This document shows positions 4,352-25,665 of a DNA stretch of 32,000 nt, piece by piece. The position numbers were made by a program, and so were the translations under genes. The DNA lies in NCBI RefSeq assembly GCF_018687695.1, contig NZ_CP061303.1, forward strand, positions 1,578,394-1,610,393. Direction: 5' to 3'. A model generated the notes under the pieces. That model did no database searches. It was not told the origin of the DNA and worked only from the letters and a program-made list of their open reading frames with translations. Every line of letters starts with the position of its first letter. Positions within the stretch are counted from its first letter, which is position 1. This DNA is from Polynucleobacter sp. MG-6-Vaara-E2 (GTDB lineage: Bacteria; Pseudomonadota; Gammaproteobacteria; Burkholderiales; Burkholderiaceae).

Positions 4352-4363
4352 TATTAACCCTAA

Positions 4364-4684: not shown

Positions 4685-4692
4685 ATCCCCAC

Positions 4693-4920: not shown

Positions 4921-5186
4921 ACTTACTCCTATTTGTTTATCCAGTTTTCTTTATACAGATCTACAAGCTCACACGATGAGCCCAATATGAGTTAGTCAAT
5001 TTATTTTTATAAATGAGGCTGACATTGAATTTCAATCACTATAAATTTCATCGCATCAAAAACAGATGAGAGTTATCCCCAATTGTTTTTTATAAAATTT
5101 GCAGGAATAATTCGTAATAGAAATTAATTGTTTTTTACCCCTCTGGCAGTTATATTGACAATTCACCCGTCACCTGAAAAGCTGCC

Positions 5187-6695: not shown

Positions 6696-6705
6696 AAGAG
6701 TCAAT

Positions 6706-7329: not shown

Positions 7330-7347
7330 TAACCTGTAGGAATAATC

Positions 7348-9271: not shown

Positions 9272-9361
9272 AATAATTTATGCTAGAAAAGAAACAGAAG
9301 TGTAACTAATAAGCGCTTGATTGCTCCGACAAAGATCCAAATATCTATCGGCATTACCATT

Positions 9362-9392
9362 GAAAGTGTGTAGTAATTGCCTACACACTTTC
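9362..9392. repeat. Perfect 12-bp-stem hairpin/inverted repeat (GAAAGTGTGTAG-taattgc-CTACACACTTTC)
   Basis: Read directly from the sequence. No U-tract on either strand. It lies 10 nt from palindrome copy 1. Confidence 0.8.
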
Positions 9393-9402
9393 GAGCATGC
9401 CC

Positions 9403-9423
9403 AGCGTTACTTAAAGTAACGCT
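9403..9423. repeat. Copy 1 of the repeated palindrome AGCGTTACTT-A-AAGTAACGCT
   Basis: Perfect 21-bp palindrome with an odd centre (central A, i.e. opposite orientation to copies 2 and 3). It lies in intergenic DNA between convergent genes. Confidence 0.85.
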
Positions 9424-9450
9424 CAAATGACCAAACCTCATCATTAGTCT

Positions 9451-9480
9451 CAAAAGCTAGCTTTTGTGAGTTTTAAGTTG
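9451..9480 (+). terminator. Weak candidate intrinsic terminator (CAAAAGCTAGCTTTTG palindrome followed by TGAGTTTTAAG)
   Basis: 16-bp perfect palindrome at 9451-9466 followed by a T-rich run. The stem is A/T-rich and lies 180 nt downstream of the 9271 stop. Confidence 0.3.
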
Positions 9481-9687
9481 AGTTTAGGTTCTCTGGTTAT
9501 GAGAGCAGACATCCAAAGAAAACCGGTAAGATTTCAAGAGGTTATGTCGCCTGTTTATCGGTGTGTGAGTATTTGTGTGACTAGATTAACAAGATCACAA
9601 CAAATACTATCTCGGTCTTTAGTTTTCAAAACCAAAGGATTTTTGGAGCAACCATCTAACACTTCGTTGCTCCAAAGTAGTTTAGAG

Positions 9688-10878: not shown

Positions 10879-10937
10879 GGAATGTCCTTTTAAGAAGCGC
10901 TTAAAGAAGCCGCCAGAAAGCAGCTTCCTCCTATTAG

Positions 10938-11459
10938 CTAAAGACTTGCATTGTTGGGCACATATTCTTCACAATCATTCCTTGGCTCTGTGCCTGGTCC
11001 CGATCGAGAATATCGACTAAAAACCTTGCCATCGGCATACACCCGTATCGATTCAAAGTAGACATAACGCGCTTTTTCATTTGCCACGCAAGCAATCTCA
11101 ATCCAGCCACTTTCTAATAGCGGGCTAATAGCCTCTGATAGCTCCCTTAAGGTCATCGGGTCTAGCTGCTCAGCAATAATATTATCCCAATCGTCTGAAG
11201 TCATTTCAGATGGATCTTTACTAATGCTCTCGCCATCCTCTGTTGATATCACATATGAATTAGCTTTCAACGGGATTGCATTTGGGTATTGCGGTAAATC
11301 AAAACCATAGTTATCAATAAAGAGTAAATCACCGTCACAACCCCAGTGCGCCCCAGAATTATCCCAATTAAATGTATTTAATATGCCCTTCATTTTTTGA
11401 GGATTGAACACTCCATCCGTCGATTTTACAAAAGTAATCATTCCATATGCATCAGCCAT
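10938..11459 (-). CDS. Hypothetical protein, 173 aa
   Basis: ORF track. The ATG is 2 nt after the stop of the upstream gene (11462), suggesting translational coupling. No motif recognised. Confidence 0.7.
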   Translation of the reverse strand: MADAYGMITFVKSTDGVFNPQKMKGILNTFNWDNSGAHWGCDGDLLFIDNYGFDLPQYPNAIPLKANSYVISTEDGESISKDPSEMTSDDWDNIIAEQLDPMTLRELSEAISPLLESGWIEIACVANEKARYVYFESIRVYADGKVFSRYSRSGPGTEPRNDCEEYVPNNASL

Positions 11460-11461
11460 TT

Positions 11462-12322
11462 TTATTCTCCTTTGTTCGATTGAACTATTACTAAATTCCG
11501 AATTTTTTGAATCCTTAACATACCAGCCGCTAGAGCTGGTCTCTTTTTCACAATTGCTTTGAAGGTATTTTGTGATTGTTTCTTTTTAGCTTTCTTATGA
11601 AATTTGGTCACCTGCTTGCACACATCTTTTAAGTCATTAGGTAGTTGCCGTACTAACCCATCAAATACTTTTTTCTCAAGACCCGAGTCGATAGGAAGCT
11701 TTGCTAGAACATATTGACGCCCCTCAGACTCACTACAGATCAGGATATTAAGATCTGATGAACCCTCTAGATGGATATTACTTTTTGGATTTAATTTGAA
11801 TGAAGTGAGCGGGAAAACTTTGCGAGAATTTAAATACATCCTAGCAATGCTCATTCTTTTATCAAAATCACCCTCATCTGAGTCGGCACCTTCAGTACGT
11901 ATCCGCTCTACCCCTCCCGCCTGCTCGACATAACCAGCAAATTTAGAGCTATCAATCTTATTCAGGCGAGCTGTCTCAATTGCGCGAGAATATACGTGAG
12001 CAGTCTTACGGTCCGCTTGAGTTATATACCGGACGAGAACCGTAGTATCTGAAGTATTTTCCTGTGTGCGGATACCGTACTTTTCGGATAAAACCTTTCT
12101 TAAGATGGCAACTTGGTCTTCTTTATCACTGCAGCCATCTAACTGCTCAGCTAAAGCATAGATTTTTCCAAGCAACTCATATAAAGCTTTGCGACCTGAG
12201 ACGATATATCTATTATTAAATTCTTCATGCTCACGAGCTAAATCATCAGCCTTACCAATTAAAGTCTTTGTAGCTACAAGAGGGCTGTGATTTTCGACGG
12301 CTTCTATTAAATCAATATGCAT
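11462..12322 (-). CDS. Hypothetical protein, 286 aa, with a basic C-terminal tail
   Basis: ORF track. Purine-rich AAAGAAAAAGGAAAAAAT precedes the ATG. The Lys-rich tail is KFHKKAKKKQSQNTFKAIVKKRP. Palindrome copy 2 lies 25 nt upstream of the start. Confidence 0.75.
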   Translation of the reverse strand: MHIDLIEAVENHSPLVATKTLIGKADDLAREHEEFNNRYIVSGRKALYELLGKIYALAEQLDGCSDKEDQVAILRKVLSEKYGIRTQENTSDTTVLVRYITQADRKTAHVYSRAIETARLNKIDSSKFAGYVEQAGGVERIRTEGADSDEGDFDKRMSIARMYLNSRKVFPLTSFKLNPKSNIHLEGSSDLNILICSESEGRQYVLAKLPIDSGLEKKVFDGLVRQLPNDLKDVCKQVTKFHKKAKKKQSQNTFKAIVKKRPALAAGMLRIQKIRNLVIVQSNKGE

Positions 12323-12346
12323 ATTTTTTCCTTTTTCTTTAAATTA

Positions 12347-12367
12347 GGCGTTACTTTAAGTAACGCC
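12347..12367. repeat. Copy 2 of the repeated palindrome (GGCGTTACTT-T-AAGTAACGCC)
   Basis: Perfect palindrome in the 56-nt gap between ORF 12379-12789 and ORF 11462-12322. Confidence 0.85.
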
Positions 12368-12378
12368 TTTCTTTGGAA

Positions 12379-12789
12379 TTAATGAAAAATCTCAATGCCT
12401 TGAATTAAGCTAGGCTTAATATTTAATGGCGGCATTTTAGGATGACTTACATTGTCGATACATGATGGATGCATTAACACTAGCGGATTGCATGTTATTA
12501 CTTCATCTAGTACGGCAAAGATTACACAGTCGTCCATAAAATCTACCCATCGTTGATTGCTTTGAATGGCATCTTCGATATGTGCTTCAAAATATGCATC
12601 CTCCGCCATCAACTCCTTTTTAAGCTTTTGATGCATAAATCTCTTACCCTTACCGCCGCACCAACTCCAATCTGGATCATTCAGAAATGCTTCACGCATA
12701 TCAATTAATTGTTGATGCTGAGTTAGCACTAATGTTTTAATCCCAAAACGATCCATCGGTATTGCGCTATATGCAATTTCTTTATTCAT
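12379..12789 (-). CDS. Hypothetical protein, 136 aa
   Basis: ORF track. Same strand as the upstream ORF and 24 nt from it. No motif recognised. Confidence 0.65.
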   Translation of the reverse strand: MNKEIAYSAIPMDRFGIKTLVLTQHQQLIDMREAFLNDPDWSWCGGKGKRFMHQKLKKELMAEDAYFEAHIEDAIQSNQRWVDFMDDCVIFAVLDEVITCNPLVLMHPSCIDNVSHPKMPPLNIKPSLIQGIEIFH

Positions 12790-12813
12790 TTTTTATTCCT
12801 TTTTTATTTGAAG

Positions 12814-13305
12814 TTAAGCAACCATGGTTTTTGATTCTTGATATGCTTTTTGTTCTTGACGTCTTAACTCATACCAAGCCTCAGTGATAAATGACATATC
12901 AACATCTATGCCAAAACCATATGTTTCAATCAGGTCTTTTTCCCATCTACCCAAGTCACATCTCCCATTACCGAAATACCACTTAGCGTCATGTCCCAAT
13001 GCAAGGATTGATTTTTTGCCTGTATGCTTTTCAAATACTGGCCAATCAGGGCTACCCATACTGATTTTGATCAAATCACCTACAGGCCTATTGAATTTAT
13101 GGCACGCTGCAACTACTCTTTTGAATAAGGTTTTATTCAAAAAGTCATATGCACCATTTTCATTTTTGTTAATGGGTAGGCATATATCAAAAAATTCCTG
13201 CGTATCGCCGTAAATCCCTGAATGCTCGAAAGTCAATATGACATCGCCCTTTAGGTAAGCCTTCTTAAACTGGTTGGAAACTGCTTTTTTCTCAATTACT
13301 TTCAT
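12814..13305 (-). CDS. Hypothetical protein (163 aa from the ATG at 13305; the ORF extends to 13326)
   Basis: ORF track 12814-13326. The internal ATG at 13303-13305 (MKVIEKK...) has AAGGAA 6 nt upstream, whereas the ATG at 13326 has no SD. Confidence 0.65.
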   Translation of the reverse strand: MKVIEKKAVSNQFKKAYLKGDVILTFEHSGIYGDTQEFFDICLPINKNENGAYDFLNKTLFKRVVAACHKFNRPVGDLIKISMGSPDWPVFEKHTGKKSILALGHDAKWYFGNGRCDLGRWEKDLIETYGFGIDVDMSFITEAWYELRRQEQKAYQESKTMVA

Positions 13306-13358
13306 TTCATATTCCTTAATAAACATAGCGAAATTGCTATATTGTTAGAATCTCATAA

Positions 13359-13406
13359 TTAACACTTTATAAAAATTGCATTTAGAATGTGATGCTTAAG
13401 TGTTAA
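13359..13406. promoter_or_regulatory. 9-bp inverted repeat TTAACACTT...AAGTGTTAA in a divergent promoter region
   Basis: Arms at 13359-13367 and 13398-13406 are exact reverse complements. They lie in the 116-137-nt AT-rich gap between divergent ORFs 12814-13305 and 13443-14306. TTAGAAT is also repeated here. Confidence 0.3.
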
Positions 13407-13442
13407 TATATTTGTATGTATTTTTAAAGAAATGATTCAAAA

Positions 13443-14306
13443 ATGCTGCCAAACAAGTCAATGAAGGATTGGGCAACAAAAGGTATTCAGGGCTATGTGA
13501 TGCTGATGCTCGAATACCTGCGACTAAGTCCTAGCTATGAATTAGCTAGAAAGGCAAGAATGGGTAAGCTCACCGCCGCTGAAAAGAAGCATCTACCCGC
13601 TGACTTTGACCTGGTACTTAAGACTTACGATGAATATGGTGATGTTGCAACTATTCAATTTGCTGACTGGTGGGCAACTACTGGAATTGGACTTTATGGG
13701 TCGGAATACATCAAACCCCAAGTTCGACAGATTGGCAGAATGGAAAAGAATGAAGAATTTGAACCTGGCTTTACTAAATCATTAGAGCAATACTTCAAAA
13801 CTTTCAGAAAGCATGAAGGTAATGGGCCGGGGCTCATTCTAGCTATCCCACTTGGTATACCCAAAAGAGCAATCCTCAAACAAGTCTCCCTAATGATCAA
13901 TAAAACTGGTGTGACTGCCCCTCCTAAAGCCCAAAAAGCCAAGCGCTCCCTTACTGCCAAGCGTCTACGCTCACAACCCCTAATTAGAGGTATTAATTTG
14001 CTATGGCTTAAAGCCCAAAATCCTGACTGGGCACTATGGAGATTGGGGGTGTTAGCAAAGATCAGCCCAACAAATGCTGAAGGTCTGGATTATCGGAGTA
14101 CCAAGTCGACTACTAATACAGTTGATCAGAGAACGAATATGGCAGTTCTAACAAGCAGAGCACTTAGTAAAGCGCAATACATTGCAGAAAATGCTGCAAG
14201 GGGAAGATTCCCTGATCCCAAAAAAATATCCCTTCCGGAGTTTGATTACGAAGATATCTATAGGCGTATGCAAATCTCTAACCCCAAACTAAAAAAACCT
14301 AAATGA
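13443..14306 (+). CDS. Hypothetical protein, 287 aa, basic
   Basis: ORF track. Its 3' end overlaps the recombinase gene 3' end by 8 nt (convergent). No motif recognised. Confidence 0.7.
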   Translation: MLPNKSMKDWATKGIQGYVMLMLEYLRLSPSYELARKARMGKLTAAEKKHLPADFDLVLKTYDEYGDVATIQFADWWATTGIGLYGSEYIKPQVRQIGRMEKNEEFEPGFTKSLEQYFKTFRKHEGNGPGLILAIPLGIPKRAILKQVSLMINKTGVTAPPKAQKAKRSLTAKRLRSQPLIRGINLLWLKAQNPDWALWRLGVLAKISPTNAEGLDYRSTKSTTNTVDQRTNMAVLTSRALSKAQYIAENAARGRFPDPKKISLPEFDYEDIYRRMQISNPKLKKPK

Positions 14307-14937
14307 GCTCAACTGCCCTGCGCTTCATATCGTCATTCACATCAATATATGCCTGTGTAGTGCCGATATTGCGATGACCCGCTAAGCTCATTAGTACACG
14401 CACACCAATTCCTTTGCTAGCAAGATTGGTAATAAAGCTCCTACGACCACTATGACTAGTAGCACCAGCTATTCCAGACTCTTTATAGATGTGCTTAAAG
14501 TGCTGCGTTAAGGTATTTGCAGTAAACCCACGCTTAGGAAACTTCTGTGTAGGGAAGAATGCGTAGTTACGGTCTTTAATGGCGATCTCATTGGCAAAAG
14601 CTTGAAGCTCTGCCTTTAAGCGTTCATTAAGAAAGACCGTTCTTGGATGGCGTCCTTTGGTTTGCTCTGGCAATAAGCGGATCTCACTTTTCACCTGATT
14701 TTCCCCGTCTAAAACATCGCATATACGCAGGGCTGCTACTTCCCCTACTCTGAGCCCACCCCAATGGGTTAATAGCAACATAGCGCGGTTACGCACGCTG
14801 TGTTTGGTGGTTTGTACATATGTCAAAACTTGGGTAAGTTCTGCACTACTAAACGATTTTGCTTGTGGCATATAGCTGTCCTTTAAATGTAATAAATACG
14901 CAGCTACAGTATGTTTTCTGATGTTTGGTTTGGACAA
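14299..14937 (-). CDS. Small tyrosine recombinase (catalytic-domain-only, FimB/FimE-sized)
   Basis: Catalytic signature: GLRVGE (Arg I), TKG (Lys), HSGRRS (His-x-x-Arg II), GHRN (His/Trp position), TTQAYIDV (Tyr nucleophile). The track start at 14937 is TTG with no SD. The ATG at 14869-14871 has AAGGA 7 nt upstream and would give 190 aa. Confidence 0.85.
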   Translation of the reverse strand: MSKPNIRKHTVAAYLLHLKDSYMPQAKSFSSAELTQVLTYVQTTKHSVRNRAMLLLTHWGGLRVGEVAALRICDVLDGENQVKSEIRLLPEQTKGRHPRTVFLNERLKAELQAFANEIAIKDRNYAFFPTQKFPKRGFTANTLTQHFKHIYKESGIAGATSHSGRRSFITNLASKGIGVRVLMSLAGHRNIGTTQAYIDVNDDMKRRAVELI

Positions 14938-17516: not shown

Positions 17517-18173
17517 ATGTCCAAAACCATTATTTTCGATACCGAAGCTACAGGCATTAAAGAACCCGTATTAATAGAAGCTGCTTGGGTTGAGCTTGAA
17601 TCTATTGAGCCCTTTACTGTTACCAACCCTTTTGTACAGCGCTATAACCCTGGTAAACCCATTACCCTTGGTGCACTAGCTACTCATCACATCATGGATG
17701 AAGAATTGGTTAATTGCCCACCCGCAGCTAGCTTTACATTGCCCGGTCATGTGGACTACATCATTGGGCATAACGTGGACTTTGACTGGGAAGTGATTGG
17801 TAAACCCGAAATCAAACGTATCTGCACACTAGCTCTAGCCCGCAAGCTTTGGCCTGATTTAGATAGCCATAATCAAAGTGCTCTCATGTATTACTTGGAA
17901 CGCGATACAGCACGTGAGCAATTACGTAACGCACATTCGGCTATTGCAGATGTGGGTATTTGCGCTGTGATCCTAGATCACATTTGCCAAGAGCTAGACA
18001 TCAAAACTATTGAAGATTTATATGCTGAATCCGAGAAAGCTAGAACCCCAACAACGATGCCATTTGGTAAACATAAGGGCATGTTGTTATCAGATGTACC
18101 TAGTGACTATAAACAGTGGCTGCTGACTCAAGGGGATATTGATCCATACCTACGGAAGGCTTTGGGTGCTTAA
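17517..18173 (+). CDS. DnaQ/ExoX-like DEDDh 3'-5' exonuclease with a C-terminal DUF3820-like tail
   Basis: Exo I is IIFDTEATG, Exo II is GHNVDFDW, and Exo III is HSAIADV (H-x4-D). The C-terminal MPFGKHKGMLLSDVPSDYKQWLL resembles DUF3820. Confidence 0.85.
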   Translation: MSKTIIFDTEATGIKEPVLIEAAWVELESIEPFTVTNPFVQRYNPGKPITLGALATHHIMDEELVNCPPAASFTLPGHVDYIIGHNVDFDWEVIGKPEIKRICTLALARKLWPDLDSHNQSALMYYLERDTAREQLRNAHSAIADVGICAVILDHICQELDIKTIEDLYAESEKARTPTTMPFGKHKGMLLSDVPSDYKQWLLTQGDIDPYLRKALGA

Positions 18174-18174
18174 T

Positions 18175-19899
18175 TCATTGAAATCCATCTTTAATAATTT
18201 CTATGGATTTAGTTGAAGCAACTACCGAAAGTAAAGTTTTCGCCCTGGAAATGCCAACATAAATTAATTCTGTTTCTTTGCTATCAAAGACTTCATCACC
18301 AACCCATAAAATTACTGCGCTGGACTCTAATCCTTTAAACCGATAAACGCTATCTACCAATACCTGATTGGATCGCCTGGCATGATTCCCGAATGACAAC
18401 TTGACTCCATGCAGACTTGCTTCATGCTCTAATGCCTTATAAGCCATCTCCTTATCTTGCCCAGTAATAAGAATAACTATATCCACAGGTTTAATAGCAT
18501 CATCAGATGTCCATTTTGCTAATGTATTAAGTATCTCTTTAACCTGTGAATCTTGATCATTTATAGCTAATAATTGCGCATTGGGGCCCTGTAACTCGGG
18601 CTCATCCACGACCTCGCCTTTATAAAAGTTATACGCCAACCTATGAATTGGAATAGTATTTCTGCAGTTTGCAGTCAAATGATATGGGGCCTCGGTAACC
18701 GGTAAATTCCCATGTCTTTTATATATCTCTTGGTTTTGATCGATAAAAATATAGAGATAACTTTTATTCACATCCTTAAGAAGCTCTTCTATTCCAAACC
18801 AATATTCATCACTAAAATCTTGGGCCTCATCAATCACAATTGCATCAAATTTTTCATCTAATAATTCATTAGAGAGGGCTAGTGCGTATGGCATCTGGAC
18901 ACCGTATAAGTGAAAACTTGAGTTTCCTGGGTATGCTTCTGCTGCCTCTTTTAACAAGTCCCGTCCTGTGCTTCCTTTTGCCTGTCTAATTCTTCGGTCA
19001 CATAATTGATGAAAATCCAATACGGCCAGCAAAGGTTGATCTTGTAATGCAAGAGCCAATGAATCAGCTAAAGGTCGGTTGTAACAAAGTAGAAGTGTTT
19101 TTAACCCGTTACTAGCAAAATACTTTGCCTTCTCAACTGCAATTAATGTTTTTCCCGTTCCAGCGCCACCAGAAATAACAGCCCGCGTTCTCCCACCAAT
19201 AATGCGTAGCACTTTTGCTTGATTATTGGTCAACCGAATTCTTTGTACTTCCGCATCATCAATGGTCGCCACAAATGCCGGCCTCACCTCAATCGGTTTC
19301 GTCAAAAATTTCTCAAGAATTTTGACTCCCTGGGAGCCTAATGGGGTTTCTCCGTTCTGACGCCAGAATTTAATTAATCTATCTAACCATGATGTAAGGC
19401 TTTTCAAATCTACTGAAATACCAATAAGCTCTCGTGGACGCTCTGGGCCGACAATATTTGCTGAATCGGCAATATCAGGAAAAAATACGCTATGTCCGAG
19501 CGAGACGCGCTCACCCTTCCATTGTCTCCATTCGGGACTTCCATTCAATTGATCAAGCAAAGCATGACGCTCACTAGATGCTTGTCTAAATGGGTCCTTT
19601 ATTTCATGCTGATAGCCATTACGATCTTTCGAGGACCATTTTCCATTGGCGGGGTCAAAAGAAATACCCCCGCCTTTTACCTCCACTACATAAATGCCCG
19701 CAGTTGGTGTAAGGATAATGAAATCAGCCTCACCTTCTTTTAATCTTCCTCGTGCGTCTTTATAAAGCCAACCTGCGCTATGAATCACCACAAAGTCTGA
19801 AGATAATTGATCGCGGCATGCCTCATAAAATCGCGCCTCAGCACGTGATTTAACTGCCGATAATTGATCGCCAGTAAGGAGCGGAATCATGCGAGCCAT
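18175..19899 (-). CDS. NERD-domain nuclease-like + SF1 (UvrD/RecD-like) helicase fusion, 574 aa
   Basis: NERD domain: FYEACRD...EADFIILTPTAGIYVVEVKG (D59, E73, K75). Helicase motifs: Walker A GGAGTGKT (K250), Walker B AIVIDEAQDF (D357/E358), VYRFKGLESSAVIL, LIYVGISRAKTLL. The ATG is 2 nt after the stop of the upstream giant ORF. Confidence 0.9.
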   Translation of the reverse strand: MARMIPLLTGDQLSAVKSRAEARFYEACRDQLSSDFVVIHSAGWLYKDARGRLKEGEADFIILTPTAGIYVVEVKGGGISFDPANGKWSSKDRNGYQHEIKDPFRQASSERHALLDQLNGSPEWRQWKGERVSLGHSVFFPDIADSANIVGPERPRELIGISVDLKSLTSWLDRLIKFWRQNGETPLGSQGVKILEKFLTKPIEVRPAFVATIDDAEVQRIRLTNNQAKVLRIIGGRTRAVISGGAGTGKTLIAVEKAKYFASNGLKTLLLCYNRPLADSLALALQDQPLLAVLDFHQLCDRRIRQAKGSTGRDLLKEAAEAYPGNSSFHLYGVQMPYALALSNELLDEKFDAIVIDEAQDFSDEYWFGIEELLKDVNKSYLYIFIDQNQEIYKRHGNLPVTEAPYHLTANCRNTIPIHRLAYNFYKGEVVDEPELQGPNAQLLAINDQDSQVKEILNTLAKWTSDDAIKPVDIVILITGQDKEMAYKALEHEASLHGVKLSFGNHARRSNQVLVDSVYRFKGLESSAVILWVGDEVFDSKETELIYVGISRAKTLLSVVASTKSIEIIKDGFQ

Positions 19900-19901
19900 T
19901 G

Positions 19902-22900
19902 CTAATCTTTAGACAAAATCATCTTCGAAGGTGCAAATGTTTTTGAAATTTTATTTTGATTTTCATCTAGAAAATATATTTTATAAATTTGACCATATGC
20001 TTTAATATCTTCAATCTTAACCTTTCCTACATCAGGAATATTTACATACAACCCAATCTCTGGTTGCAAAATTTCTAAAGAATCTTTTTGCGCAATTGTT
20101 TTCCAACCAGAATCAAATCTAAATTGGTTGGTATTTTCAAACGGATTCTTTATTAGATAGCTTCGGCGCCTGTTTTCATCTTGCGCAAATTCGACAACAC
20201 ACAGCCAGTATCTGTCACCAGCTTCAATGGCTTTCTTTAATTCTGTTGGGGTAAGTATTACACCCTCCTCAGTCCAACCATTTGTCTGTCCTTTTACCTC
20301 TATATACTCCTCTATACCCTCAAATGAAGTTGCCTTAACATCGAATCCGGGATTGTTATGAGGCATCTCAGTGAATGAAATCCATTTTGCTTTGTGCTCT
20401 TCCAGAAAATACTTAACAGCAGCCCTTGCAGTAGCATCGCGAGAGGCAACGACTTCAGCGCTAAGTTCACCAGCCTCCTCACTTGAATCCTTGCCACTAT
20501 CAGCATAGCTGATTAGCCTGCCTGAAGAAGCGCGCTCTTTGAAGTTATCTTCAGATCGTTTTGAGGAGCTATTTTGAGGAGTGAGATGAGATTCTCCAAT
20601 ATTTACAGAGGATGCCGGCTCGCTAGACTCGCTCAAATTGGGAGATGTTCTGCTGGGGGATGCAAATTTTTCAGCTTTATCAAACAAGGAGGGTATTTTA
20701 AATTTTTCGTCGCCAGTAAAGTCACCGCGCTCTAAGGAGCTATTAGTTGTGGATGCGATCGACTGACTTCCATCCTCCTTGAATTCGGTTGGTACATTAG
20801 GCGTATTGACCTGTATTGGGTCTGCATCGTCACCGTCTGAATTATTGACATTTGCCCCCTCCTCGCCATTTAAGTCCAGTGGGGTTTCTAAAATTAATCC
20901 ATCCAATCCCTTAGAAACATCACTTGGTAAATCAGGAACTCCTTTAACTCTAAGGATATTTGCAAGCTCACTGTCATTTTTTGCTAGTAATAATCTTGCG
21001 ATAAGGTCCGAACTTTTAATACCAAAAAAGTTACATATTTCTTCGGCGATTAAATCCTCTTCAGGACTTGCATCCTCTTGCAAATAGATGCTACCTGAAT
21101 CATATATGGCATCAATTTTCGAGCGTTTAACTATTTCCGAAAGTTCTATCTCAACATTTAAATCTTTTAGTTTAAAAACTTTTACATTTGCAAGAATGCT
21201 AAATTTATGATTTTCCATCGCTTCTTCAAAGGCGCGAGGATTCTTGTGATAAAAAACACGAGCAAAAAAAGGTGTTAACTCCTTAATTTTAGTTGTCATA
21301 TACTCATCGAGCACACCACGCGAATCAAGCAGTACTCGCTTCTCTATATTTTCAGAAACAAAATCAATTGGAATTTCAGAGAATAAATTTCTTAATCGTG
21401 GAATTTCAGCCGATGGGATAGCAAGAAATGAAAGTCTTTCTTCATCAAAAAAAAGTTCTCCATATTCATCAAAATCATTCACATAAAGATTATCTGAATT
21501 GGAAACCATCTGACTATGCTGATTTAGGTATACAGCATTACTTCTAATGAAATCGAGCCAATCATCTATATCAAGATTATTTTTAATAGCATCGTCGTAC
21601 TCTCTCCCTGCCTGCTTATATATCCTTATCGCCTCTTCCTTCTTCTTTTGCTGATCTGGGATTGAATCTAATTCAGTGAGTGCCACAATTTTCTGGGAAA
21701 TTGATAACTTTTCAGTTACCCCTAGTTTTCCTACAAAAAATCCATGGAAATCTCGATAAGTCTGCTCTAGGGGTGGATATATGGAATCGAGGAATTGTTC
21801 ATTTGAAGCCCAAGTCACCTCATCTTTTTTTGCCCAAAACACATCGCCTTTTTTCTTTATCCTTATTAGTCCATAGTAACTAAATTGAAAGTCAGTATTT
21901 TCATCCCATAGAGTTTCGAGCTTCCTATATATAGCCTTTAGCTGAGCGCCCGTTTCACCGCCTGCCTCCTTAAGCTGCTTAAGCCTTTTAACACAGGCCT
22001 CAGAGTCAACTTGATAGGTTATGCCGCAAATATCCAATAACTCTTCATTAAATATTGTTGCCGTTAAATAAGGTGGCGTATCACCAAAAATATCTTCGAT
22101 ATCCTGATTCCGATAATAAGATTGGCTTATTGGAATATTGCCCCGCTTATTTACTGGAGCAAACATTCCTGATAGTGCATTTGCAAAATGACTACTCACC
22201 ATAGTTGGGGATTTACGACGAGAGCCTAATGATGTCTCGAGCTTGTCCTGGTAATAGTCCCAATTTTTATCAATTATTTCAAGTGTAGCTTTTCTAATTT
22301 CTGAATTTTCAGAATCCAGCAATAATTGCAATTCCTCGGACGGCGAAGGGTTTGTGCCATCAACCACACGAGGATAATCAATAATTCCAATTTGCTTAAA
22401 AAATAATATCCATGATTTTTTTTCTTCAAAAATATTTGAAGCTGTTTCGTCAATATAACTTGCAGAAACTAGTACTTCCTTACCAATTGATGACTTAAGA
22501 AAACGCTCTATTGAGAATGAAGGGTCATATTCATCGCTTATATATAGAGTATCCGGTTTTGCAAAAACCCACTCCTGCTTGTCTTTGGATTTCGAGCCAA
22601 TATACATTCCATTAGAAATGACTCTAGTAGCCCTATTTACTGCAAAAATGTTTTCATTTTTGGCCTCAGATGCGATGAACGCTTCAAAATTATCCTTTAC
22701 ATATCTTAAATGGCCAATTAATGCCTCGTTCTCAGATGATTTCCGCCCCTCAGAACTGTGCAATGGAAGGATATGAGATTTAATGACTGTATATGAGTCT
22801 GGTTGTTTAATATTAATTTTCGCAAAAAATTCATAAGCCTCTTTACATTTCGAGATAGCGAGTTCGCATATATTGTTATCAACAAATGTTAACTCCCCCT

Positions 22901-24476
22901 CAAATCCATATTTTTTATTTTTACCAAGCGGATAATAAGCATCCCCATCATCTGGAGCAGCAAACCCACCACCAGCAAGAGGAATGCAATTAACGGAAGA
23001 TATGCCAGCCATTAGTAATGTACTAATATTTCGCGTCGCTAAGAAGGCGTAAAAATTAGACTTCCATTCAACCGATTGGCTATCTAGCCAATCCTGCTGC
23101 GCCCTAAAAATATCAACCAAATCTTCATCCGTTAAACTTTTCACACCTAATATCTTCAACATCTCAAATTCTTTTTTACAACGCTTATCAAGATAATAAA
23201 AATTAAATAGCTTTTCAGCTATTTGCGGCGGAAAAAGGTTTTGGAATTCTGGTGGTGCTATCCGAATATCTCTTGGCTTTTTCCAGCCGCCCCCTTGAAC
23301 AGGAAGACTTTCTACATTTGATAGCTTTTCCAAAATTGCCATTGGCAAATCTTTAAAAAAGGGGTCAACGATTCGATCGAAATCTGAAAGAAAACTCAAA
23401 TACGAATAGGTTAATGGCTCGCTAGCTTTAAATCTTGCCAATACCTCAGTTGAAAAAATATCAGCAATCTGATCCTTGAGATATGTATTCCATGCTGAGC
23501 TAGTGTTTATATCTTGTCTACTGGCACTTAAGATAAAGTCTGCCTGTATTATGAATTTGAAGCCAAAATTACGAATTGGTAAATATGCAAAGACATTCTC
23601 GTCATTTGTAACTTTTGCCTCTCCATTTTCTTTTAATGAAAATGCAAGAACAATTTCACTTGAACTAATTTCAACTCGACTTTCTTCACTTACACCTGAA
23701 ACATCAATTAATTTTGATACGCGAAGATAATTATTTTTTTCTTCTTTACTAACACCCCCCAAGAATGTTCTACTAGTTAAAGTAGTGTGCTCATCCCTAT
23801 CAAGCCTTAGATAAATTAATTTATTTTCTGATTGTTCTATTTTTATTTCTTTAAGCTTTGATAAAAAGAGCAATAACCTTGGATCAAAAGCTTTAAATGT
23901 CTCATTATTGAATTGGTAACCAGTCTTAGCGGGCAAAATAATTGTTGTCTCATGCTTACCCACTTCTCCGCTAGGCTCATGCCACTCGGGGACTATATAC
24001 CCAAGCAAATTTTCTGGGTCTAACCGATTAAAACGAAAATGAAATCCATTCGAATGGATTTCGGGGGCATCTGAAACCGCAAAGACTGATTTAAATCCAA
24101 TGCCTTTTTCACCAATAAATCCTCGATTCTTAGACTTAGAACTTTTGCCGGTTGTACATAAAGCTGAAACGTTCTCTTCACGAAATCCTAGCTCATTATT
24201 TACAAGTCGAAGGCTATTGGGTGTGATATGAAATTCAAGCTTAGGAATTATCTTTGGATCGTATTGGTTATCATCAGCATTTTGAATAACCTCCAATACA
24301 AAATGTCCTTGGTCGTTATATAGCCCGGTCGATAGAAGTCGGAGTGCATTGTTATAGCCATCAATCACCCTGTCTTTACCTGGTCTAAAGTTGTTAGTTC
24401 CAGCTTCATCAATTCCAAATTCCTTTCGGATTTCAGAAATTATCATGTAAGGCGTTTTGGACATCAGTTTGATCAA
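19902..24476 (-). CDS. Giant sacsin/NO VEIN-like GHKL ATPase with a C-terminal DUF3883 (PD-(D/E)xK-fold) domain, 1524 aa
   Basis: Bergerat-fold motifs: LEVIQNADDN (res 61-70, nt 24267-24293), NNELGF, GEKGIGFKSVF (res 122-132). C-terminus: NPGFDV...EEYIEVKG (E1393/K1395) ...RYWLCVVEF, which is typical of DUF3883. The track start is TTG at 24476, and the first ATG is at 24464. Confidence 0.9.
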   Translation of the reverse strand: MIKLMSKTPYMIISEIRKEFGIDEAGTNNFRPGKDRVIDGYNNALRLLSTGLYNDQGHFVLEVIQNADDNQYDPKIIPKLEFHITPNSLRLVNNELGFREENVSALCTTGKSSKSKNRGFIGEKGIGFKSVFAVSDAPEIHSNGFHFRFNRLDPENLLGYIVPEWHEPSGEVGKHETTIILPAKTGYQFNNETFKAFDPRLLLFLSKLKEIKIEQSENKLIYLRLDRDEHTTLTSRTFLGGVSKEEKNNYLRVSKLIDVSGVSEESRVEISSSEIVLAFSLKENGEAKVTNDENVFAYLPIRNFGFKFIIQADFILSASRQDINTSSAWNTYLKDQIADIFSTEVLARFKASEPLTYSYLSFLSDFDRIVDPFFKDLPMAILEKLSNVESLPVQGGGWKKPRDIRIAPPEFQNLFPPQIAEKLFNFYYLDKRCKKEFEMLKILGVKSLTDEDLVDIFRAQQDWLDSQSVEWKSNFYAFLATRNISTLLMAGISSVNCIPLAGGGFAAPDDGDAYYPLGKNKKYGFEGELTFVDNNICELAISKCKEAYEFFAKINIKQPDSYTVIKSHILPLHSSEGRKSSENEALIGHLRYVKDNFEAFIASEAKNENIFAVNRATRVISNGMYIGSKSKDKQEWVFAKPDTLYISDEYDPSFSIERFLKSSIGKEVLVSASYIDETASNIFEEKKSWILFFKQIGIIDYPRVVDGTNPSPSEELQLLLDSENSEIRKATLEIIDKNWDYYQDKLETSLGSRRKSPTMVSSHFANALSGMFAPVNKRGNIPISQSYYRNQDIEDIFGDTPPYLTATIFNEELLDICGITYQVDSEACVKRLKQLKEAGGETGAQLKAIYRKLETLWDENTDFQFSYYGLIRIKKKGDVFWAKKDEVTWASNEQFLDSIYPPLEQTYRDFHGFFVGKLGVTEKLSISQKIVALTELDSIPDQQKKKEEAIRIYKQAGREYDDAIKNNLDIDDWLDFIRSNAVYLNQHSQMVSNSDNLYVNDFDEYGELFFDEERLSFLAIPSAEIPRLRNLFSEIPIDFVSENIEKRVLLDSRGVLDEYMTTKIKELTPFFARVFYHKNPRAFEEAMENHKFSILANVKVFKLKDLNVEIELSEIVKRSKIDAIYDSGSIYLQEDASPEEDLIAEEICNFFGIKSSDLIARLLLAKNDSELANILRVKGVPDLPSDVSKGLDGLILETPLDLNGEEGANVNNSDGDDADPIQVNTPNVPTEFKEDGSQSIASTTNSSLERGDFTGDEKFKIPSLFDKAEKFASPSRTSPNLSESSEPASSVNIGESHLTPQNSSSKRSEDNFKERASSGRLISYADSGKDSSEEAGELSAEVVASRDATARAAVKYFLEEHKAKWISFTEMPHNNPGFDVKATSFEGIEEYIEVKGQTNGWTEEGVILTPTELKKAIEAGDRYWLCVVEFAQDENRRRSYLIKNPFENTNQFRFDSGWKTIAQKDSLEILQPEIGLYVNIPDVGKVKIEDIKAYGQIYKIYFLDENQNKISKTFAPSKMILSKD

Positions 24477-24529: not shown

Positions 24530-25108
24530 TTAATCCCAATCTCCCGTTTCCTCCATCCCCTCCATGTCCTTGGGGCAAATTGGGGGGCCTAAAATAAGAT
24601 GCCTTTTCAACATCACCACCTCATATCCGCACTTAGAGCATTTTGCACCTGGTCTTTTGGGGGCTTTTTGCATAGTTCTGACTGGCAAGCTCAATCTACC
24701 ATGAGGGAAAGTGCCTAACTTATCCACAATCCTAATTAAATCCTGCTTTAGCCAATCACCAGCACCAGCGCTTCTCATCGGCCCCTTTAGCCCAACATCC
24801 AGTGCAATTTTTCTAAAATTTTCACCATGTCCACTTTGGCAATCATCTACAGCATGTACTAATTCATGCACCAAGGTATCTAAGAAGTCTAACGGCGTCT
24901 GAAGATGTGGTGCTATAAAGATTTGATTAATCCCGTCTACAGCAGATCTTGTAGACCAGCACTGACCTAGGTGCCGTCCTTTTCCGCCAGAACTTGGAAA
25001 CCCAACCGATACCTTCACTATTGGTATTGAATATCCAGCCTTATCAAATATTGGCACTATATGATCTACAGCGCGCATTAACCATTGCTCTCGATTTATT
25101 TCACCCAT
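24530..25108 (-). CDS. SprT-like zinc metalloprotease with a C-terminal zinc-ribbon, 192 aa
   Basis: HExxH motif in LVHELVHAV followed by GHGENF (SprT-like pattern). The C-terminus has CSKCGY...ICPKD. It lies 53 nt upstream of the giant ORF on the same strand. Confidence 0.75.
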   Translation of the reverse strand: MGEINREQWLMRAVDHIVPIFDKAGYSIPIVKVSVGFPSSGGKGRHLGQCWSTRSAVDGINQIFIAPHLQTPLDFLDTLVHELVHAVDDCQSGHGENFRKIALDVGLKGPMRSAGAGDWLKQDLIRIVDKLGTFPHGRLSLPVRTMQKAPKRPGAKCSKCGYEVVMLKRHLILGPPICPKDMEGMEETGDWD

Positions 25109-25116
25109 AGAACCTC

Positions 25117-25665
25117 CTAATGATTTCGGAAGCTACGGTTTTCGGCCATTCTTATGAACTCTAGATCCAAAGATTTAGATCTTTCATATTCCCAATCCCG
25201 TGGGTAGGCAATTTCAGCTCTATCCCAATTCTTGATACGTAATTCCTCCTTCTCATCAAGCTCTTCATAAGTTGCAGCTATCAAAATATTTTCCTTAAGA
25301 GGTTCTTTTACACTTGCCTTTCTATTGCCCGCTGTATTGCCGACTCTTGGACGCACTAAGGGTATTAGATCGAGCCACCAAACACGAATACTTGCCCCGA
25401 AAACTTGATCGACTAATACTGCATCTGTATTTTGTGTGTTCTCTTCATTTATTAATGCAATTCTCAGCCCCCTATCTGCGAGCATCTGTAGGAGAGCTCT
25501 AGCCTCTTCATGATTCTTATATTCGACACAAAGTAGTTGATTCGAGGATATGAAGTTCACGTATCCATTCAAATCAAAAAGAAATTTGCCATAGCCGCCT
25601 ATATAGCGCTCATGTATTGAACCCTTACGCATTAAGACTGAAACACCCTCTATTAATACAGGCAT
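25117..25665 (-). CDS. Hypothetical protein, 182 aa
   Basis: ORF track. Its stop is 8 nt before the SprT-like start, on the same strand. It is the first gene after a divergent intergenic region. No motif recognised. Confidence 0.65.
   Translation of the reverse strand: MPVLIEGVSVLMRKGSIHERYIGGYGKFLFDLNGYVNFISSNQLLCVEYKNHEEARALLQMLADRGLRIALINEENTQNTDAVLVDQVFGASIRVWWLDLIPLVRPRVGNTAGNRKASVKEPLKENILIAATYEELDEKEELRIKNWDRAEIAYPRDWEYERSKSLDLEFIRMAENRSFRNH

What the first reader, a model, noticed from the sequence alone, without database searches (positions are those of the whole stretch)
18175..24476. Translationally coupled pair: giant sacsin/NO VEIN-like GHKL ATPase-DUF3883 protein + NERD-SF1 helicase, a candidate uncharacterised nucleic-acid conflict (defence) system
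**Seen in sequence, giant ORF.** ORF 19902-24476 (1524 aa) opens with Bergerat-fold motifs of the sacsin/NOV type: LEVIQNADDN, NNELGF and GEKGIGFKSVF. About 1,100 aa follow that I cannot assign to any domain. Next comes a ~148-aa low-complexity linker. The protein ends in a DUF3883-like PD-(D/E)xK module (NPGFDV...YIEVKG...RYWLCVVEF).

**Seen in sequence, helicase.** The TAG stop of the giant ORF (19902-19904) is only 2 nt from the ATG (19897-19899) of a 574-aa protein. That protein fuses a NERD nuclease-related domain (EADFIIL...YVVEVKG) to an SF1 helicase (GGAGTGKT, VIDEAQDF, FKGLE, YVGISRAKT).

**Established knowledge.** GHKL ATPases of the MORC/paraMORC type, PD-(D/E)xK modules and SF1 helicases recur in prokaryotic defence systems. 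Two-gene ATPase/nuclease + helicase modules define Gabija and Hachiman. A single-protein nuclease-helicase fusion defines Nhi.

**Inference.** The pair carries two nuclease-fold domains, one helicase motor and one GHKL ATPase, and it is embedded in island-like DNA. That fits a sensor/effector system acting on foreign DNA. I do not recognise this particular pairing as a named system.
Basis: partly seen in the sequence, partly recalled or inferred. Interest (0 to 1): 0.85.

Follow-up and report, generated by a model that had tools for sequence, protein, structure and literature searches.

The report
Two-gene Tiamat variant with helicase
The giant gene belongs to the already named but mechanistically unexplained anti-phage family Tiamat. 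In this branch of the family it is always welded to a nuclease-helicase gene, so the "single-gene" system is really a two-gene machine here.

Summary
In detail: both ORFs, all quoted motifs and the 2-nt stop/start junction are in the sequence.

**Identity of the two genes**
- The window comes from Polynucleobacter sp. MG-6-Vaara-E2.
- The giant protein matches the PADLOC model TmtA (Tiamat, Millman 2022) almost end to end (E = 6e-209). It is therefore not an unnamed system.
- It falls in subfamily PDLC03966. The only experimentally verified Tiamat (Bacillus cereus, cloned as a single gene) falls in PDLC03964 and shares just 31% identity over 95 residues of the ATPase.

**The helicase partner**
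- All 54 testable related loci whose TmtA reaches the C-terminus carry the NERD-SF1 helicase immediately downstream.
- In the 49 complete pairs the gap is -13 to +6 nt.
- These loci span Proteobacteria, Acidobacteria, Planctomycetota and Desulfobacterota.
- The two proteins co-diverge (r = 0.95).
- The helicase is the better conserved of the two.
- No other neighbouring gene is conserved.
- A 65-residue C-terminal tail of TmtA occurs only where the helicase does.
- I found no paper in the searchable library that describes this pairing.

**Likely mechanism (inferred)**
An ATP-gated GHKL clamp carrying a NOV_C nickase hands DNA to the helicase-nuclease, in the manner of MutL and UvrD.

**Verdict:** new variant of a known kind; moderate interest.

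The parts
19902..24464 (-). tmtA-like gene: 1520-aa Tiamat-family giant protein (the listed TTG start at 24476 would add 4 aa); stop TAG at 19902-19904
   Evidence: ORF list and translation. PADLOC TmtA model PDLC03966, E = 6.4e-209, residues 22-1462 against model positions 21-1649 of 1655. 100% identical to the NCBI 1520-aa 'DUF3883 domain-containing protein' of Polynucleobacter sp. MG-6-Vaara-E2.
24015..24377 (-). GHKL (Bergerat-fold) ATP-binding domain of sacsin/Hsp90 type, about residues 30-150
   Evidence: Pfam SACS and NCBIfam P_loop_sacsin, E = 2e-20. PDB sequence hits to TRAP1, HtpG and sacsin. E58, N62, D65 and G118-F124 are invariant in 57 sequences. Motif II is N89-N-E-x-G93.
23475..24014 (-). 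Hsp90-like middle/transducer region, about residues 151-330 (beta-rich); boundaries approximate
   Evidence: AlphaFold2 model mc20212e90172 (mean pLDDT 82.5). Foldseek aligns 500-700 columns of the model to TRAP1/Hsp90 N-terminal plus middle domains, E about 1e-7.
20895..23474 (-). Conserved alpha/beta scaffold of about 860 aa (residues about 331-1190) with no family assignment; a repeated helix/beta-hairpin pattern
   Evidence: pLDDT mostly 85-93. Many invariant W, F, Y, R and K columns. No Pfam hit even at E <= 1 in 16 members. The Foldseek hit list contained only Hsp90-family proteins; per-region match coordinates were not reported.
20460..20894 (-). Non-conserved, low-complexity Ser/Asp/Glu/Pro-rich linker (residues about 1191-1335)
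   Evidence: Translation. The alignment consensus has no majority residue across this stretch.
20100..20459 (-). NOV_C / DUF3883 PD-(D/E)xK nuclease domain (residues about 1336-1455)
   Evidence: Pfam NOV_C, E = 4e-12. D1375, E1389 and K1391 are invariant. PADLOC HmaA C-terminus, E = 5e-7. The HmaA NOV_C domain is a nickase required for defence (PMC11232893).
19905..20099 (-). Clade-specific conserved C-terminal tail (residues about 1456-1520); candidate docking site for the helicase
   Evidence: Invariant P1468, G1480, I1484, G1491, F1510, P1512 and M1515. The tail is present in 54 of 54 helicase-linked loci. It is absent from 7 NOV_C-bearing relatives that lack this helicase.
19897..19904 (-). 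Gene junction: TAG stop, 2-nt spacer (CA), ATG start
   Evidence: Sequence. In 49 complete pairs the spacing is 2 nt (25), 1 (5), 3 (4), 6 (1), -4 (2) or -13 (12).
18175..19899 (-). NERD-SF1 helicase gene (574 aa)
   Evidence: ORF list and translation. PADLOC RTasNERD-Hel, E = 1.5e-72, and C3a187 NERD+UvrD, E = 1e-25.
19300..19899 (-). NERD (PD-(D/E)xK-like) nuclease domain, residues about 1-200
   Evidence: Pfam NERD, E = 3e-11. E57, D59, E73 and K75 are invariant in 55 sequences. Folded alpha/beta domain in model m460fc47f8d8d.
18178..19194 (-). Compact SF1 helicase core of SLFN-group-3/DUF2075/UvrD_C_2 type, residues about 236-574
   Evidence: Pfam UvrD_C_2, SLFN-g3_helicase and AAA_19. Walker A G244-T251 and Walker B E358 are invariant, D357 is conserved in at least 90%; R413, R520, K522, G523, E525 and R552 are invariant. 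Top Foldseek hits are human SLFN11/SLFN14 (E = 5e-13), then Ighmbp2, UvrD, RecD2, Upf1 and GajB.

Best explanation
Window 18175-24464(-) is a two-gene operon, best described as a two-component subtype of the Tiamat anti-phage system.

**Gene 1 (TmtA, 1520 aa)** contains, in order:
- a sacsin/Hsp90-type GHKL ATPase;
- an Hsp90-like middle domain;
- a conserved scaffold of about 860 aa;
- a floppy linker;
- a NOV_C (DUF3883) PD-(D/E)xK nuclease;
- a 65-aa tail.

**Gene 2 (574 aa)** is a NERD nuclease fused to a compact SLFN/DUF2075-like SF1 helicase. It is translationally coupled to gene 1.

**Shown here**
- The anatomy of both proteins.
- The family assignment.
- The invariance of all catalytic motifs.
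- The obligate synteny and co-divergence of the pair.

**Inferred mechanism**
1. TmtA works as an ATP-gated dimeric clamp or sensor on DNA, as GHKL proteins such as MutL, MORC and Hsp90 do.
2. Its tethered NOV_C domain nicks the DNA it has captured.
3. The C-terminal tail recruits the NERD-helicase.
4. The helicase loads at the nick or end, then unwinds and degrades the invading DNA.

This is the same logic as MutL (GHKL plus endonuclease) handing a nick to UvrD, or GajA handing a nick to GajB.
For: **Family**
- PADLOC TmtA, E = 6.4e-209, near full length.
- Millman et al. list Tiamat as Hsp90 + DUF3684 + DUF3883 and include a Polynucleobacter member.

**Synteny**
- 20 of 20 genome loci have the helicase at -12 to +3 nt from the TmtA stop.
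- All 27 metagenome loci with at least 300 nt of downstream sequence have it, and a further locus (L103) with only 178 nt downstream still shows the first 54 aa of the helicase.
- It is also present in Desulfomicrobium, in Polynucleobacter-like contigs and on a Sphingomonas plasmid.
- More distant pairs (helicase 38-40% identical) occur in L087 and L088.

**Only the pair is conserved**
- No other window ORF is conserved in relatives beyond the closest ones.
- The helicase is the only conserved neighbour in the clustering analysis.

**Co-inheritance**
- Pearson r = 0.95 between the pairwise-identity matrices of 43 non-redundant pairs; Mantel 0 of 2000.
- Tail versus helicase 2x2 table: 54 / 0 / 1 / 7, Fisher p = 1.6e-8.

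**Catalytic competence**
- Invariant GHKL, NOV_C, NERD and Walker residues.
- NOV_C has nickase activity essential for defence in HmaA (PMC11232893).

**Defence context**
- Flanks of related loci match GajA/GajB (E = 2e-234 and 2e-188, two loci), DrmMI/type IIG, mad3 and LmuB.
- In the window the pair sits in island-like DNA with an integrase. Its close relative L086 carries a weak TrwB coupling-protein-domain hit and DUF932.

**Modularity of the helicase**
- The same helicase family is a partner of UG34 reverse transcriptases (PMC9226505). This fits a role as a shared downstream module.
Against: - No experiment exists on this subfamily.
- The only verified Tiamat (B. cereus, PDLC03964) works as a single cloned gene. 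It shares only the ATPase motifs with this protein.
- Another homologue (Enterobacter, PDLC03968) gave no protection.
- The order of events, the clamp model, DNA as the substrate and the tail-helicase contact are all inference. No complex was modelled.
- The co-divergence and the 2x2 table are not corrected for shared ancestry.
- In the window itself no known defence system lies next to the pair, apart from a DEDDh exonuclease.
- The middle 860 aa have no assigned function.
Confidence: 0.6

Rival explanations
1. Same two-gene system, reversed logic (Hachiman-like). The NERD-helicase is the sensor that patrols DNA. TmtA is the effector, held inactive until the helicase meets an aberrant DNA end or replication intermediate. 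The NOV_C nuclease is then released or activated and degrades DNA indiscriminately (abortive infection).
For: - The helicase is the more conserved partner (mean pairwise identity 0.545 against 0.385), as expected for a component that reads a generic DNA feature.
- Helicases are the proposed sensors in Hachiman and HmaA (abstracts and text seen).
- The same helicase family pairs with quite different large partners: a UG34 reverse transcriptase, and DEAD + DUF1998 operons.
Against: - The helicase carries its own intact nuclease (E57/D59/E73/K75 invariant), which a pure sensor would not need.
- TmtA has its own ATPase and a very large conserved scaffold, which looks more like a sensor than a simple effector.
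- No data distinguish the order of action.
Confidence: 0.22
2. Two independent defence genes that merely travel together. TmtA would be a self-sufficient single-gene Tiamat, as published. The NERD-helicase would be a stand-alone Nhi-like nuclease-helicase sitting in the same defence island.
For: - Verified Tiamat is a single gene.
- Nhi-type proteins (nuclease + DUF2075 helicase) defend on their own (preprint text; PMC11232893).
- NERD-helicase relatives occur without TmtA.
Against: - 54 of 54 co-occurrence, with spacing of -13 to +6 nt in complete pairs across four phyla, while all other neighbours vary.
- Co-divergence r = 0.95.
- A tail domain is found only with the helicase.
- Every helicase relative examined at 38% identity or more has a TmtA-like partner. 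Other partners appear only at 33% identity or below.
Confidence: 0.08
3. Not immunity. The pair would be a DNA repair or maintenance module of a mobile element, for example a MutL/UvrD-like processing system that serves an integrative element or plasmid.
For: - The GHKL + nickase + SF1 helicase combination mirrors mismatch repair (established knowledge).
- The pair lies in mobile-element-like DNA and on plasmids.
- The window has no adjacent known defence system.
Against: - Distribution across phyla is patchy and single-copy, with variable flanks.
- Several loci have neighbours such as Gabija, RM/DISARM, MADS and Lamassu.
- A distant family member has verified anti-phage activity.
- NERD and NOV_C domains are both reported as enriched or functional in defence.
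Confidence: 0.1

Closest known systems
Tiamat (TmtA), Millman et al. 2022, Cell Host Microbe / bioRxiv 10.1101/2022.05.11.491447
   Same: - Same overall architecture: Hsp90-like ATPase, large middle region, DUF3883/NOV_C.
- Near full-length match to a PADLOC TmtA model.
- A Polynucleobacter homologue is already in the published family table.
   Different: - Published and tested as a single gene; the verified protein is B. cereus FORC_005, 1590 aa.
- That protein falls in subfamily PDLC03964, while the window protein falls in PDLC03966.
- BLASTP finds only 31% identity over 95 aa of the ATPase.
- The window clade always carries a coupled NERD-helicase and an extra C-terminal tail.
- Two relatives of the verified clade (L180, L181) have no helicase.
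Nhi / Nhi-like nuclease-helicase immunity (Bari et al. 2022; Millman et al. 2022)
   Same: Gene 2 has the same layout: an N-terminal restriction-endonuclease-fold nuclease and a C-terminal compact SF1 helicase of the DUF2075/SLFN-group-3 kind.
   Different: - The PADLOC Nhi model matches only the Walker A stretch (residues 223-271, E = 1e-8).
- Nhi works alone, whereas this helicase is never found without TmtA at 38% identity or more.
UG34 DRT-associated NERD-helicase (Mestre et al. 2022, cluster 485; PADLOC RTasNERD-Hel)
   Same: This is the best PADLOC hit of gene 2 (E = 1.5e-72). It has the same NERD + helicase layout and also serves as a partner of a large defence protein.
   Different: The partner there is a reverse transcriptase. 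No ORF scanned in the window matched a reverse-transcriptase domain.
Hma / HmaA (SNF2 helicase fused to NOV_C)
   Same: It shares the NOV_C nuclease domain (PADLOC HmaA C-terminus, E = 5e-7). It also combines a helicase with NOV_C, and the NOV_C nickase is essential for defence.
   Different: The helicase there is SF2/SNF2 and is fused in cis, and there is no GHKL ATPase. Here the helicase is SF1, is a separate protein and brings a second nuclease.
Gabija (GajA/GajB) and MutL-UvrD
   Same: All three combine an ATP-regulated nicking protein with an SF1 UvrD-like helicase that acts on the nick. GajB appears among the structural and HMM hits of gene 2.
   Different: - GajA is an ABC-type ATPase with a Toprim nuclease, not GHKL + NOV_C.
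- MutL's endonuclease domain is unrelated to NOV_C.
- The similarities are functional analogies only.
Eukaryotic sacsin and plant NO VEIN
   Same: - The ATPase is of the sacsin type: Pfam SACS and NCBIfam P_loop_sacsin, with Asn in place of the motif II Asp.
- The C-terminal domain is the one Pfam names after NO VEIN.
   Different: The eukaryotic proteins have other domain sets (DnaJ and HEPN in sacsin) and no helicase partner is known for them. Their relationship to this protein was not analysed further here.

Membership tests
Tiamat (TmtA) | Significant, near full-length match to a TmtA family model | tested here: met
   PADLOC PDLC03966, E = 6.4e-209, 695 bits, residues 22-1462 against model positions 21-1649 of 1655. 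Six further TmtA models match partially.
Tiamat (TmtA) | Domain set Hsp90-like ATPase + DUF3684 + DUF3883 (as annotated by Millman et al.) | tested here: inconclusive
   The Hsp90/sacsin ATPase and NOV_C/DUF3883 are found. DUF3684 is not detected by Pfam hmmscan, even at E <= 1 in 16 members.
Tiamat (TmtA) | Single-gene system (one protein suffices) | tested here: not met
   At the level of architecture, a second gene is coupled in 54 of 54 loci of this clade. Whether TmtA alone is functionally sufficient cannot be tested here.
Tiamat (TmtA) | Close relationship to the experimentally verified protein (B. cereus FORC_005) | tested here: not met
   Only 31% identity over 95 aa. The two fall in different PADLOC subfamilies, 03964 and 03966.
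Tiamat (TmtA) | Protection against phage | not testable with these tools
   This needs expression and phage challenge.
Nhi / Nhi-like | Nuclease + DUF2075-type SF1 helicase in one protein | tested here: met
   NERD plus SLFN-g3_helicase/UvrD_C_2. The top structural hits are SLFN11 and SLFN14.
Nhi / Nhi-like | Match to the Nhi family model over its length; acts as a solitary gene | tested here: not met
   The PADLOC Nhi model matches residues 223-271 only. The gene is always coupled to TmtA.
DRT UG34-associated NERD-helicase | Match to the RTasNERD-Hel model | tested here: met
   E = 1.5e-72 in two stretches, the best covering residues 1-288 against model positions 1-275 of 519.
DRT UG34-associated NERD-helicase | Adjacent UG/Abi reverse transcriptase | tested here: not met
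   Neighbours are TmtA and a DEDDh exonuclease. No scanned window ORF matched a reverse-transcriptase domain.
Gabija | GajA (ATPase + Toprim) next to a GajB UvrD-like helicase | tested here: not met
   There are only weak partial GajB hits (E >= 3e-9) and no GajA.
Hachiman | HamA (DUF1837) + HamB SF2 helicase | tested here: not met
   Neither protein shows a HamA or HamB model among the PADLOC hits displayed (all 9 for TmtA, best 25 of 34 for the helicase), and the helicase is SF1.
MORC / paraMORC GHKL | MORC-type HATPase_c_3 ATPase with S5-fold domain | tested here: inconclusive
   HATPase_c_3 is only weak (best E = 0.008) in 6 of 16 members. The best sequence and structure matches are sacsin and Hsp90/TRAP1.

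The most novel reading that the evidence does not exclude
Tiamat-type GHKL-nuclease giants may in general be one half of a two-component 'clamp/nickase + helicase' immune machine, a defence counterpart of MutL-UvrD.
- Different clades recruit different helicases. This clade uses a NERD-SF1 helicase. Others have a UvrD, a UvrD with a PD-(D/E)xK nuclease, SNF2/DrmD-like helicases, or (on a Hymenobacter plasmid) a DUF2075 helicase.
- The NERD-helicase is itself an interchangeable downstream module. It is shared with UG34 reverse transcriptases and with DEAD + DUF1998 operons.
- The published single-gene definition would then describe only a minority configuration. It could also explain why some homologues tested alone gave no protection.
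Probability: 0.35. Interest if true: 0.7.

Novelty: new variant of a known kind. Interest (0 to 1): 0.55.

Why it matters
- **Tiamat lacks a mechanism.** Tiamat is counted routinely by DefenseFinder and PADLOC, but I found no published mechanism in the searchable library. It is treated there as a single nuclease-bearing gene.
- **The definition is incomplete for this clade.** A large clade always carries a co-evolving nuclease-helicase, plus a tail domain that tracks with it. That changes how the system should be defined and cloned in this clade.
- **Concrete experiments follow.** They include testing the pair against each single gene, testing the tail as an interface, and establishing the order of nicking and unwinding.
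- **Wider links.** The finding connects Tiamat to the wider theme of helicase-nuclease immunity (Gabija, Hachiman, Nhi, Hma). The MutL-UvrD analogy would make the GHKL ATPase's role testable.
- **Annotation.** Pipelines currently leave the helicase unassigned or assign it to DRT.

Tried and rejected
**Third conserved gene: none found**
- The two upstream genes (24530-25665) and the downstream DEDDh exonuclease are conserved only in the closest Polynucleobacter-like contigs.
- Clustering of neighbours found only the helicase.

**Reverse-transcriptase partner: none found**
- This was suggested by the RTasNERD-Hel hit, but no scanned ORF matched a reverse-transcriptase domain.

**The 860-aa middle region: not assigned**
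- No Pfam hit, even at E <= 1 over 16 members.
- PDB sequence search and Foldseek returned only Hsp90-family matches.
- Domain-level fold searches were not possible with the tools.

**Promoter and terminator scans: uninformative**
- There were fewer promoter-like sites than in shuffled sequence.

**tRNA scan for an island boundary: none in the window**.

**Native context of the verified B. cereus TmtA: not recovered**
- The last homology search returned only fragments. Two relatives (L180, L181) are pseudogenised or disrupted by insertion sequences and lack a helicase.

**Relatives of the Enterobacter (negative) homologue on plasmids: too distant to be useful**.

**Literature searches: nothing on the pairing**
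- Searches combining Tiamat with TmtA, DUF3883, GHKL, NERD or helicase found no mechanistic or two-gene description.
- One paper notes that Tiamat co-occurs with 'RM Type IV' in a Pseudomonas hotspot. This might be the same pair under another label, but I could not check it.

Full report
**1. The observation**

The window holds two adjacent ORFs on the minus strand: 19902-24476 (1524 codons from a TTG) and 18175-19899 (574 codons). The TAG of the first ORF is separated from the ATG of the second by two bases.

The 1520-aa protein starting at the ATG at 24464 is 100% identical to an NCBI protein of Polynucleobacter sp. MG-6-Vaara-E2, found on a contig of 1.985 Mb. I therefore take 24464 as the start.

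Domain assignments:
- Pfam and NCBIfam place a sacsin-type ATP-binding domain at residues about 54-150 and NOV_C (DUF3883) at 1347-1431 of the giant protein.
- They place NERD (19-126) and SF1 helicase families (UvrD_C_2, AAA_19, SLFN-g3_helicase) on the second protein.

**2. What the giant protein is**

Against PADLOC-DB it matches the TmtA model PDLC03966 with E = 6.4e-209 over almost the full length of both protein and model. It matches six other TmtA models partially. TmtA is the single protein of the Tiamat system of Millman et al. 2022.

The supplementary tables of that preprint show the following:
- Tiamat is annotated as 'Hsp90, DUF3684, DUF3883'.
- One verified representative exists: Bacillus cereus FORC_005, 1590 aa, cloned on 5883 bp.
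- One representative failed to protect: Enterobacter sp. ku-bf2.
- The family list contains Polynucleobacter sp. VK13.

The relationship to the tested protein is nevertheless remote:
- The first 399 residues of the B. cereus protein, which is all the supplement prints, fall in model PDLC03964.
- The Enterobacter protein falls in PDLC03968, and the window protein in PDLC03966.
- BLASTP finds only 31% identity over 95 residues of the ATPase.

**3. Anatomy of the giant protein**

In alignments of 16 and 57 homologues, the Bergerat motif I (E58, N62, D65), the glycine-rich lid (G118-F124) and the NOV_C triad (D1375, E1389, K1391) are invariant. Residues about 1191-1335 have no consensus.

Aligned to TRAP1 and sacsin, the motif II aspartate is an invariant asparagine (N89), as in sacsin. 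This supports 'sacsin/Hsp90 type' rather than MORC.

An AlphaFold2 model of residues 1-1200 has mean pLDDT 82.5. Foldseek against the PDB returns only Hsp90-family proteins, aligning 500-700 columns (N-terminal and middle domains, E about 1e-7).

The remaining conserved region, up to about residue 1190, is confidently folded. It has no Pfam match, even at E <= 1 in 16 members. It shows a repeated helix/beta-hairpin pattern that I could not classify.

NOV_C is not just a motif resemblance. In HmaA the NOV_C domain has nickase activity that is essential for defence (PMC11232893). The HmaA model also hits the window protein's C-terminus.

**4. Anatomy of the helicase**

In 55 homologues the NERD residues E57, D59, E73 and K75, Walker A (G244-T251), Walker B E358 (D357 is conserved in at least 90%) and the C-terminal arginine/lysine motifs are invariant.

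The AlphaFold2 model (pLDDT 78.5) is closest to human SLFN11 and SLFN14 (E = 5e-13 over about 600 columns). Next come Ighmbp2, UvrD, RecD2, Upf1 and GajB.

It is therefore a nuclease + DUF2075/SLFN-type SF1 helicase, the layout of Nhi. The PADLOC Nhi model, however, matches only the Walker A stretch. The best model is 'RTasNERD-Hel' (E = 1.5e-72). That model represents the NERD-helicase that Mestre et al. found next to 7 of 17 UG34 reverse transcriptases (PMC9226505). No scanned ORF in the window matched a reverse-transcriptase domain.

**5. Is the pair a unit?**

*Genome scan.* A scan of one genome per species returned 80 TmtA-like loci.
- The window helicase has a 43-60% identical homologue in 20 of them.
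- These are exactly the loci whose TmtA aligns through to the C-terminus.
- The helicase ORF (568-582 aa) starts between -12 and +3 nt from the TmtA stop in all 20.

*Metagenome scan.* All 27 loci with a full-length match and at least 300 nt of downstream sequence have the helicase. A further locus with only 178 nt downstream still shows the first 54 aa of the helicase.

*Additional pairs.*
- Starting from the helicase: Desulfomicrobium salsuginis and a Sphingomonas naphthae plasmid.
- Starting from close TmtA homologues: Polynucleobacter-like contigs.
- Two IMG/VR contigs, where the helicase is only 38-40% identical and the partner is a 1907-aa SACS + NOV_C protein.

*Taxa.* The pairs occur in Beta- and Gammaproteobacteria, Alphaproteobacteria (plasmid), Desulfobacterota, Acidobacteriota and Planctomycetota.

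*Other genes.* No other window ORF is conserved in these loci. The two upstream genes and a remnant of the downstream exonuclease recur only in the nearest relatives. Clustering of all neighbours finds only the helicase.

*Complete pairs.* Across 49 complete pairs:
- The spacing is 2 nt (25), 1 (5), 3 (4), 6 (1), -4 (2) or -13 (12).
- The pairwise-identity matrices of the two proteins correlate at r = 0.95 (43 non-redundant pairs; Mantel 0 of 2000).
- The helicase is better conserved than TmtA (0.545 against 0.385).

*The tail.* A conserved tail of about 65 aa after NOV_C is present in all 54 helicase-linked loci. It is absent from seven NOV_C-bearing relatives that lack this helicase. One locus has no tail but a distant NERD-helicase 560 nt downstream.

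These statistics are not corrected for shared descent. The picture is still unambiguous: in this clade the operon, not the gene, is the unit of inheritance.

**6. Wider pattern**

Other TmtA-like clades sit next to other helicases:
- a UvrD in L078, whose TmtA ends in an HNH domain;
- a UvrD-PDDEXK_1 in an archaeon (L038);
- DrmD-like SNF2 helicases in about a dozen Poribacteria-type loci;
- a HEPN-SNF2 helicase (L058).

A Hymenobacter plasmid relative of the verified clade is followed by a 191-aa ORF and a DUF2075 helicase. Two closer relatives of the verified clade have no helicase.

Conversely, NERD-helicase relatives at 33% identity or below have other partners:
- a C5 methylase;
- UvrD + DEAD + DUF1998 operons;
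- a type III-B CRISPR neighbourhood.

The helicase therefore looks like an exchangeable module, and helicase pairing looks like a recurrent theme in the Tiamat superfamily.

**7. Defence context**

In the window:
- The pair lies in island-like DNA that includes an integrase-family gene and many ORFs without family matches.
- The syntenic contig L086 carries a weak TrwB coupling-protein-domain hit and DUF932.
- No other known defence system is detected.

Across 19 related genome loci, the flanking ORFs match complete-looking Gabija (GajA 2e-234, GajB 2e-188, two loci), DrmMI/type IIG enzymes, mad3 and LmuB.

The C-terminal NOV_C + tail query finds 49 cluster representatives at E <= 1e-30 and 647 at E <= 1e-10 among 1.84 billion proteins. 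The clade is modest in size but widespread.

**8. Mechanism**

Shown:
- two intact nuclease motifs;
- one intact GHKL ATPase;
- one intact SF1 motor;
- obligate coupling of the two genes.

Inferred, by analogy with GHKL clamps (MutL, MORC, Hsp90), with the HmaA NOV_C nickase, and with MutL-UvrD and GajA-GajB:
1. TmtA dimerises on ATP and captures DNA.
2. TmtA nicks the DNA through the tethered NOV_C domain.
3. TmtA passes the nick to the NERD-helicase, which is docked on its tail.
4. The helicase unwinds and degrades the DNA.

The main rival is the reverse order, a Hachiman-like helicase sensor releasing the TmtA nuclease. Independent hitch-hiking genes, or a repair or maintenance role, are less likely for the reasons given in the rival entries.

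**9. Novelty and verdict**

Gene 1 is a member of a named family and gene 2 is a member of a described helicase cluster. The obligate pairing, the tail that tracks it, and the general helicase theme are not described in any paper I could find. The library lacks most subscription-journal papers, so I cannot exclude prior description elsewhere.

I rate it a new variant of a known kind, with interest 0.55. It would not astonish a specialist. It does correct the working definition of Tiamat for a large clade and gives a concrete handle on a mechanism that is still unknown.

Noticed in passing
window 17517-18173 (+): A 218-aa DEDDh/RNase_T exonuclease with a QSregVF_b-like tail. It is convergent with the helicase and ends 1 nt from the helicase stop codon. 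It matches the PADLOC 'DEDDh' CRISPR-associated model (E = 1e-22). Only a degraded remnant is present in the related contig L085.
   Followed up: partly
window 24530-25108 and 25117-25665 (-): Two small genes sit directly upstream of tmtA; one has a weak SprT-like hit. They are conserved only in the nearest relatives (L085, L086), not in the 48 more distant loci that carry the helicase pair, so they belong to the local island rather than to the system.
   Followed up: yes
L081-L084 (Desulfomicrobium) and L085 (Polynucleobacter-like), just downstream of the pair: The same trio follows the pair in two different phyla: a 153-aa gene, a 747-784-aa VIT/VWA protein and a MerR regulator. The VIT/VWA and MerR proteins are 30-37% identical between the two. 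This may be a co-travelling module of unknown role.
   Followed up: partly
L184 (Azospirillum plasmid), L185 (Rhizobium plasmid), IMG/VR L091-L093: NERD-helicase relatives (24-31% identical) are a downstream gene of conserved operons. On the two plasmids the operon reads UvrD-helicase + DEAD-type helicase (about 1050-1150 aa) + DUF1998/MZB protein + NERD-helicase. In the Azospirillum case a DarT gene lies next to it. I did not identify the operon as a named system.
   Followed up: no
L055, L058, L061, L063, L065, L068, L069, L072, L076, L077, L079, L080: Shorter sacsin-like proteins (about 1000-1270 aa), mostly from Poribacteria, are preceded by a related family of large upstream proteins. The two members scanned are SNF2 helicases: DrmD-like in L063 and HEPN-SNF2 in L058. 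In L061 and L063 they are also followed by a second large protein, shown to be sacsin-like in L063. This looks like a different helicase-coupled branch of the same superfamily.
   Followed up: partly
L178 (Hymenobacter canadensis plasmid) 2521-13854: DruA, then a 1578-aa TmtA relative of the experimentally verified clade, then a 191-aa ORF and a 356-aa DUF2075 helicase. The last two may be one split Nhi-like gene.
   Followed up: partly
L078 7881-14936: A 1621-aa TmtA-like protein (PADLOC PDLC03972) whose C-terminus matches a ZorE-like HNH endonuclease model. It is followed at 58 nt by a 710-aa UvrD helicase.
   Followed up: partly
Millman et al. 2022 supplementary table: An Enterobacter sp. 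ku-bf2 TmtA homologue, cloned alone, gave no protection. Whether it lacks a partner gene in the construct was not checked.
   Followed up: no
window 1025-14937: The rest of the window looks like island cargo: a 629-aa ORF with no family, a Peptidase_M41-domain protein with no AAA-domain hit (3017-4351), a DUF2779 protein, an LRV/HEAT-repeat protein and a 212-aa integrase-family ORF (14299-14937). None matches PADLOC models.
   Followed up: partly
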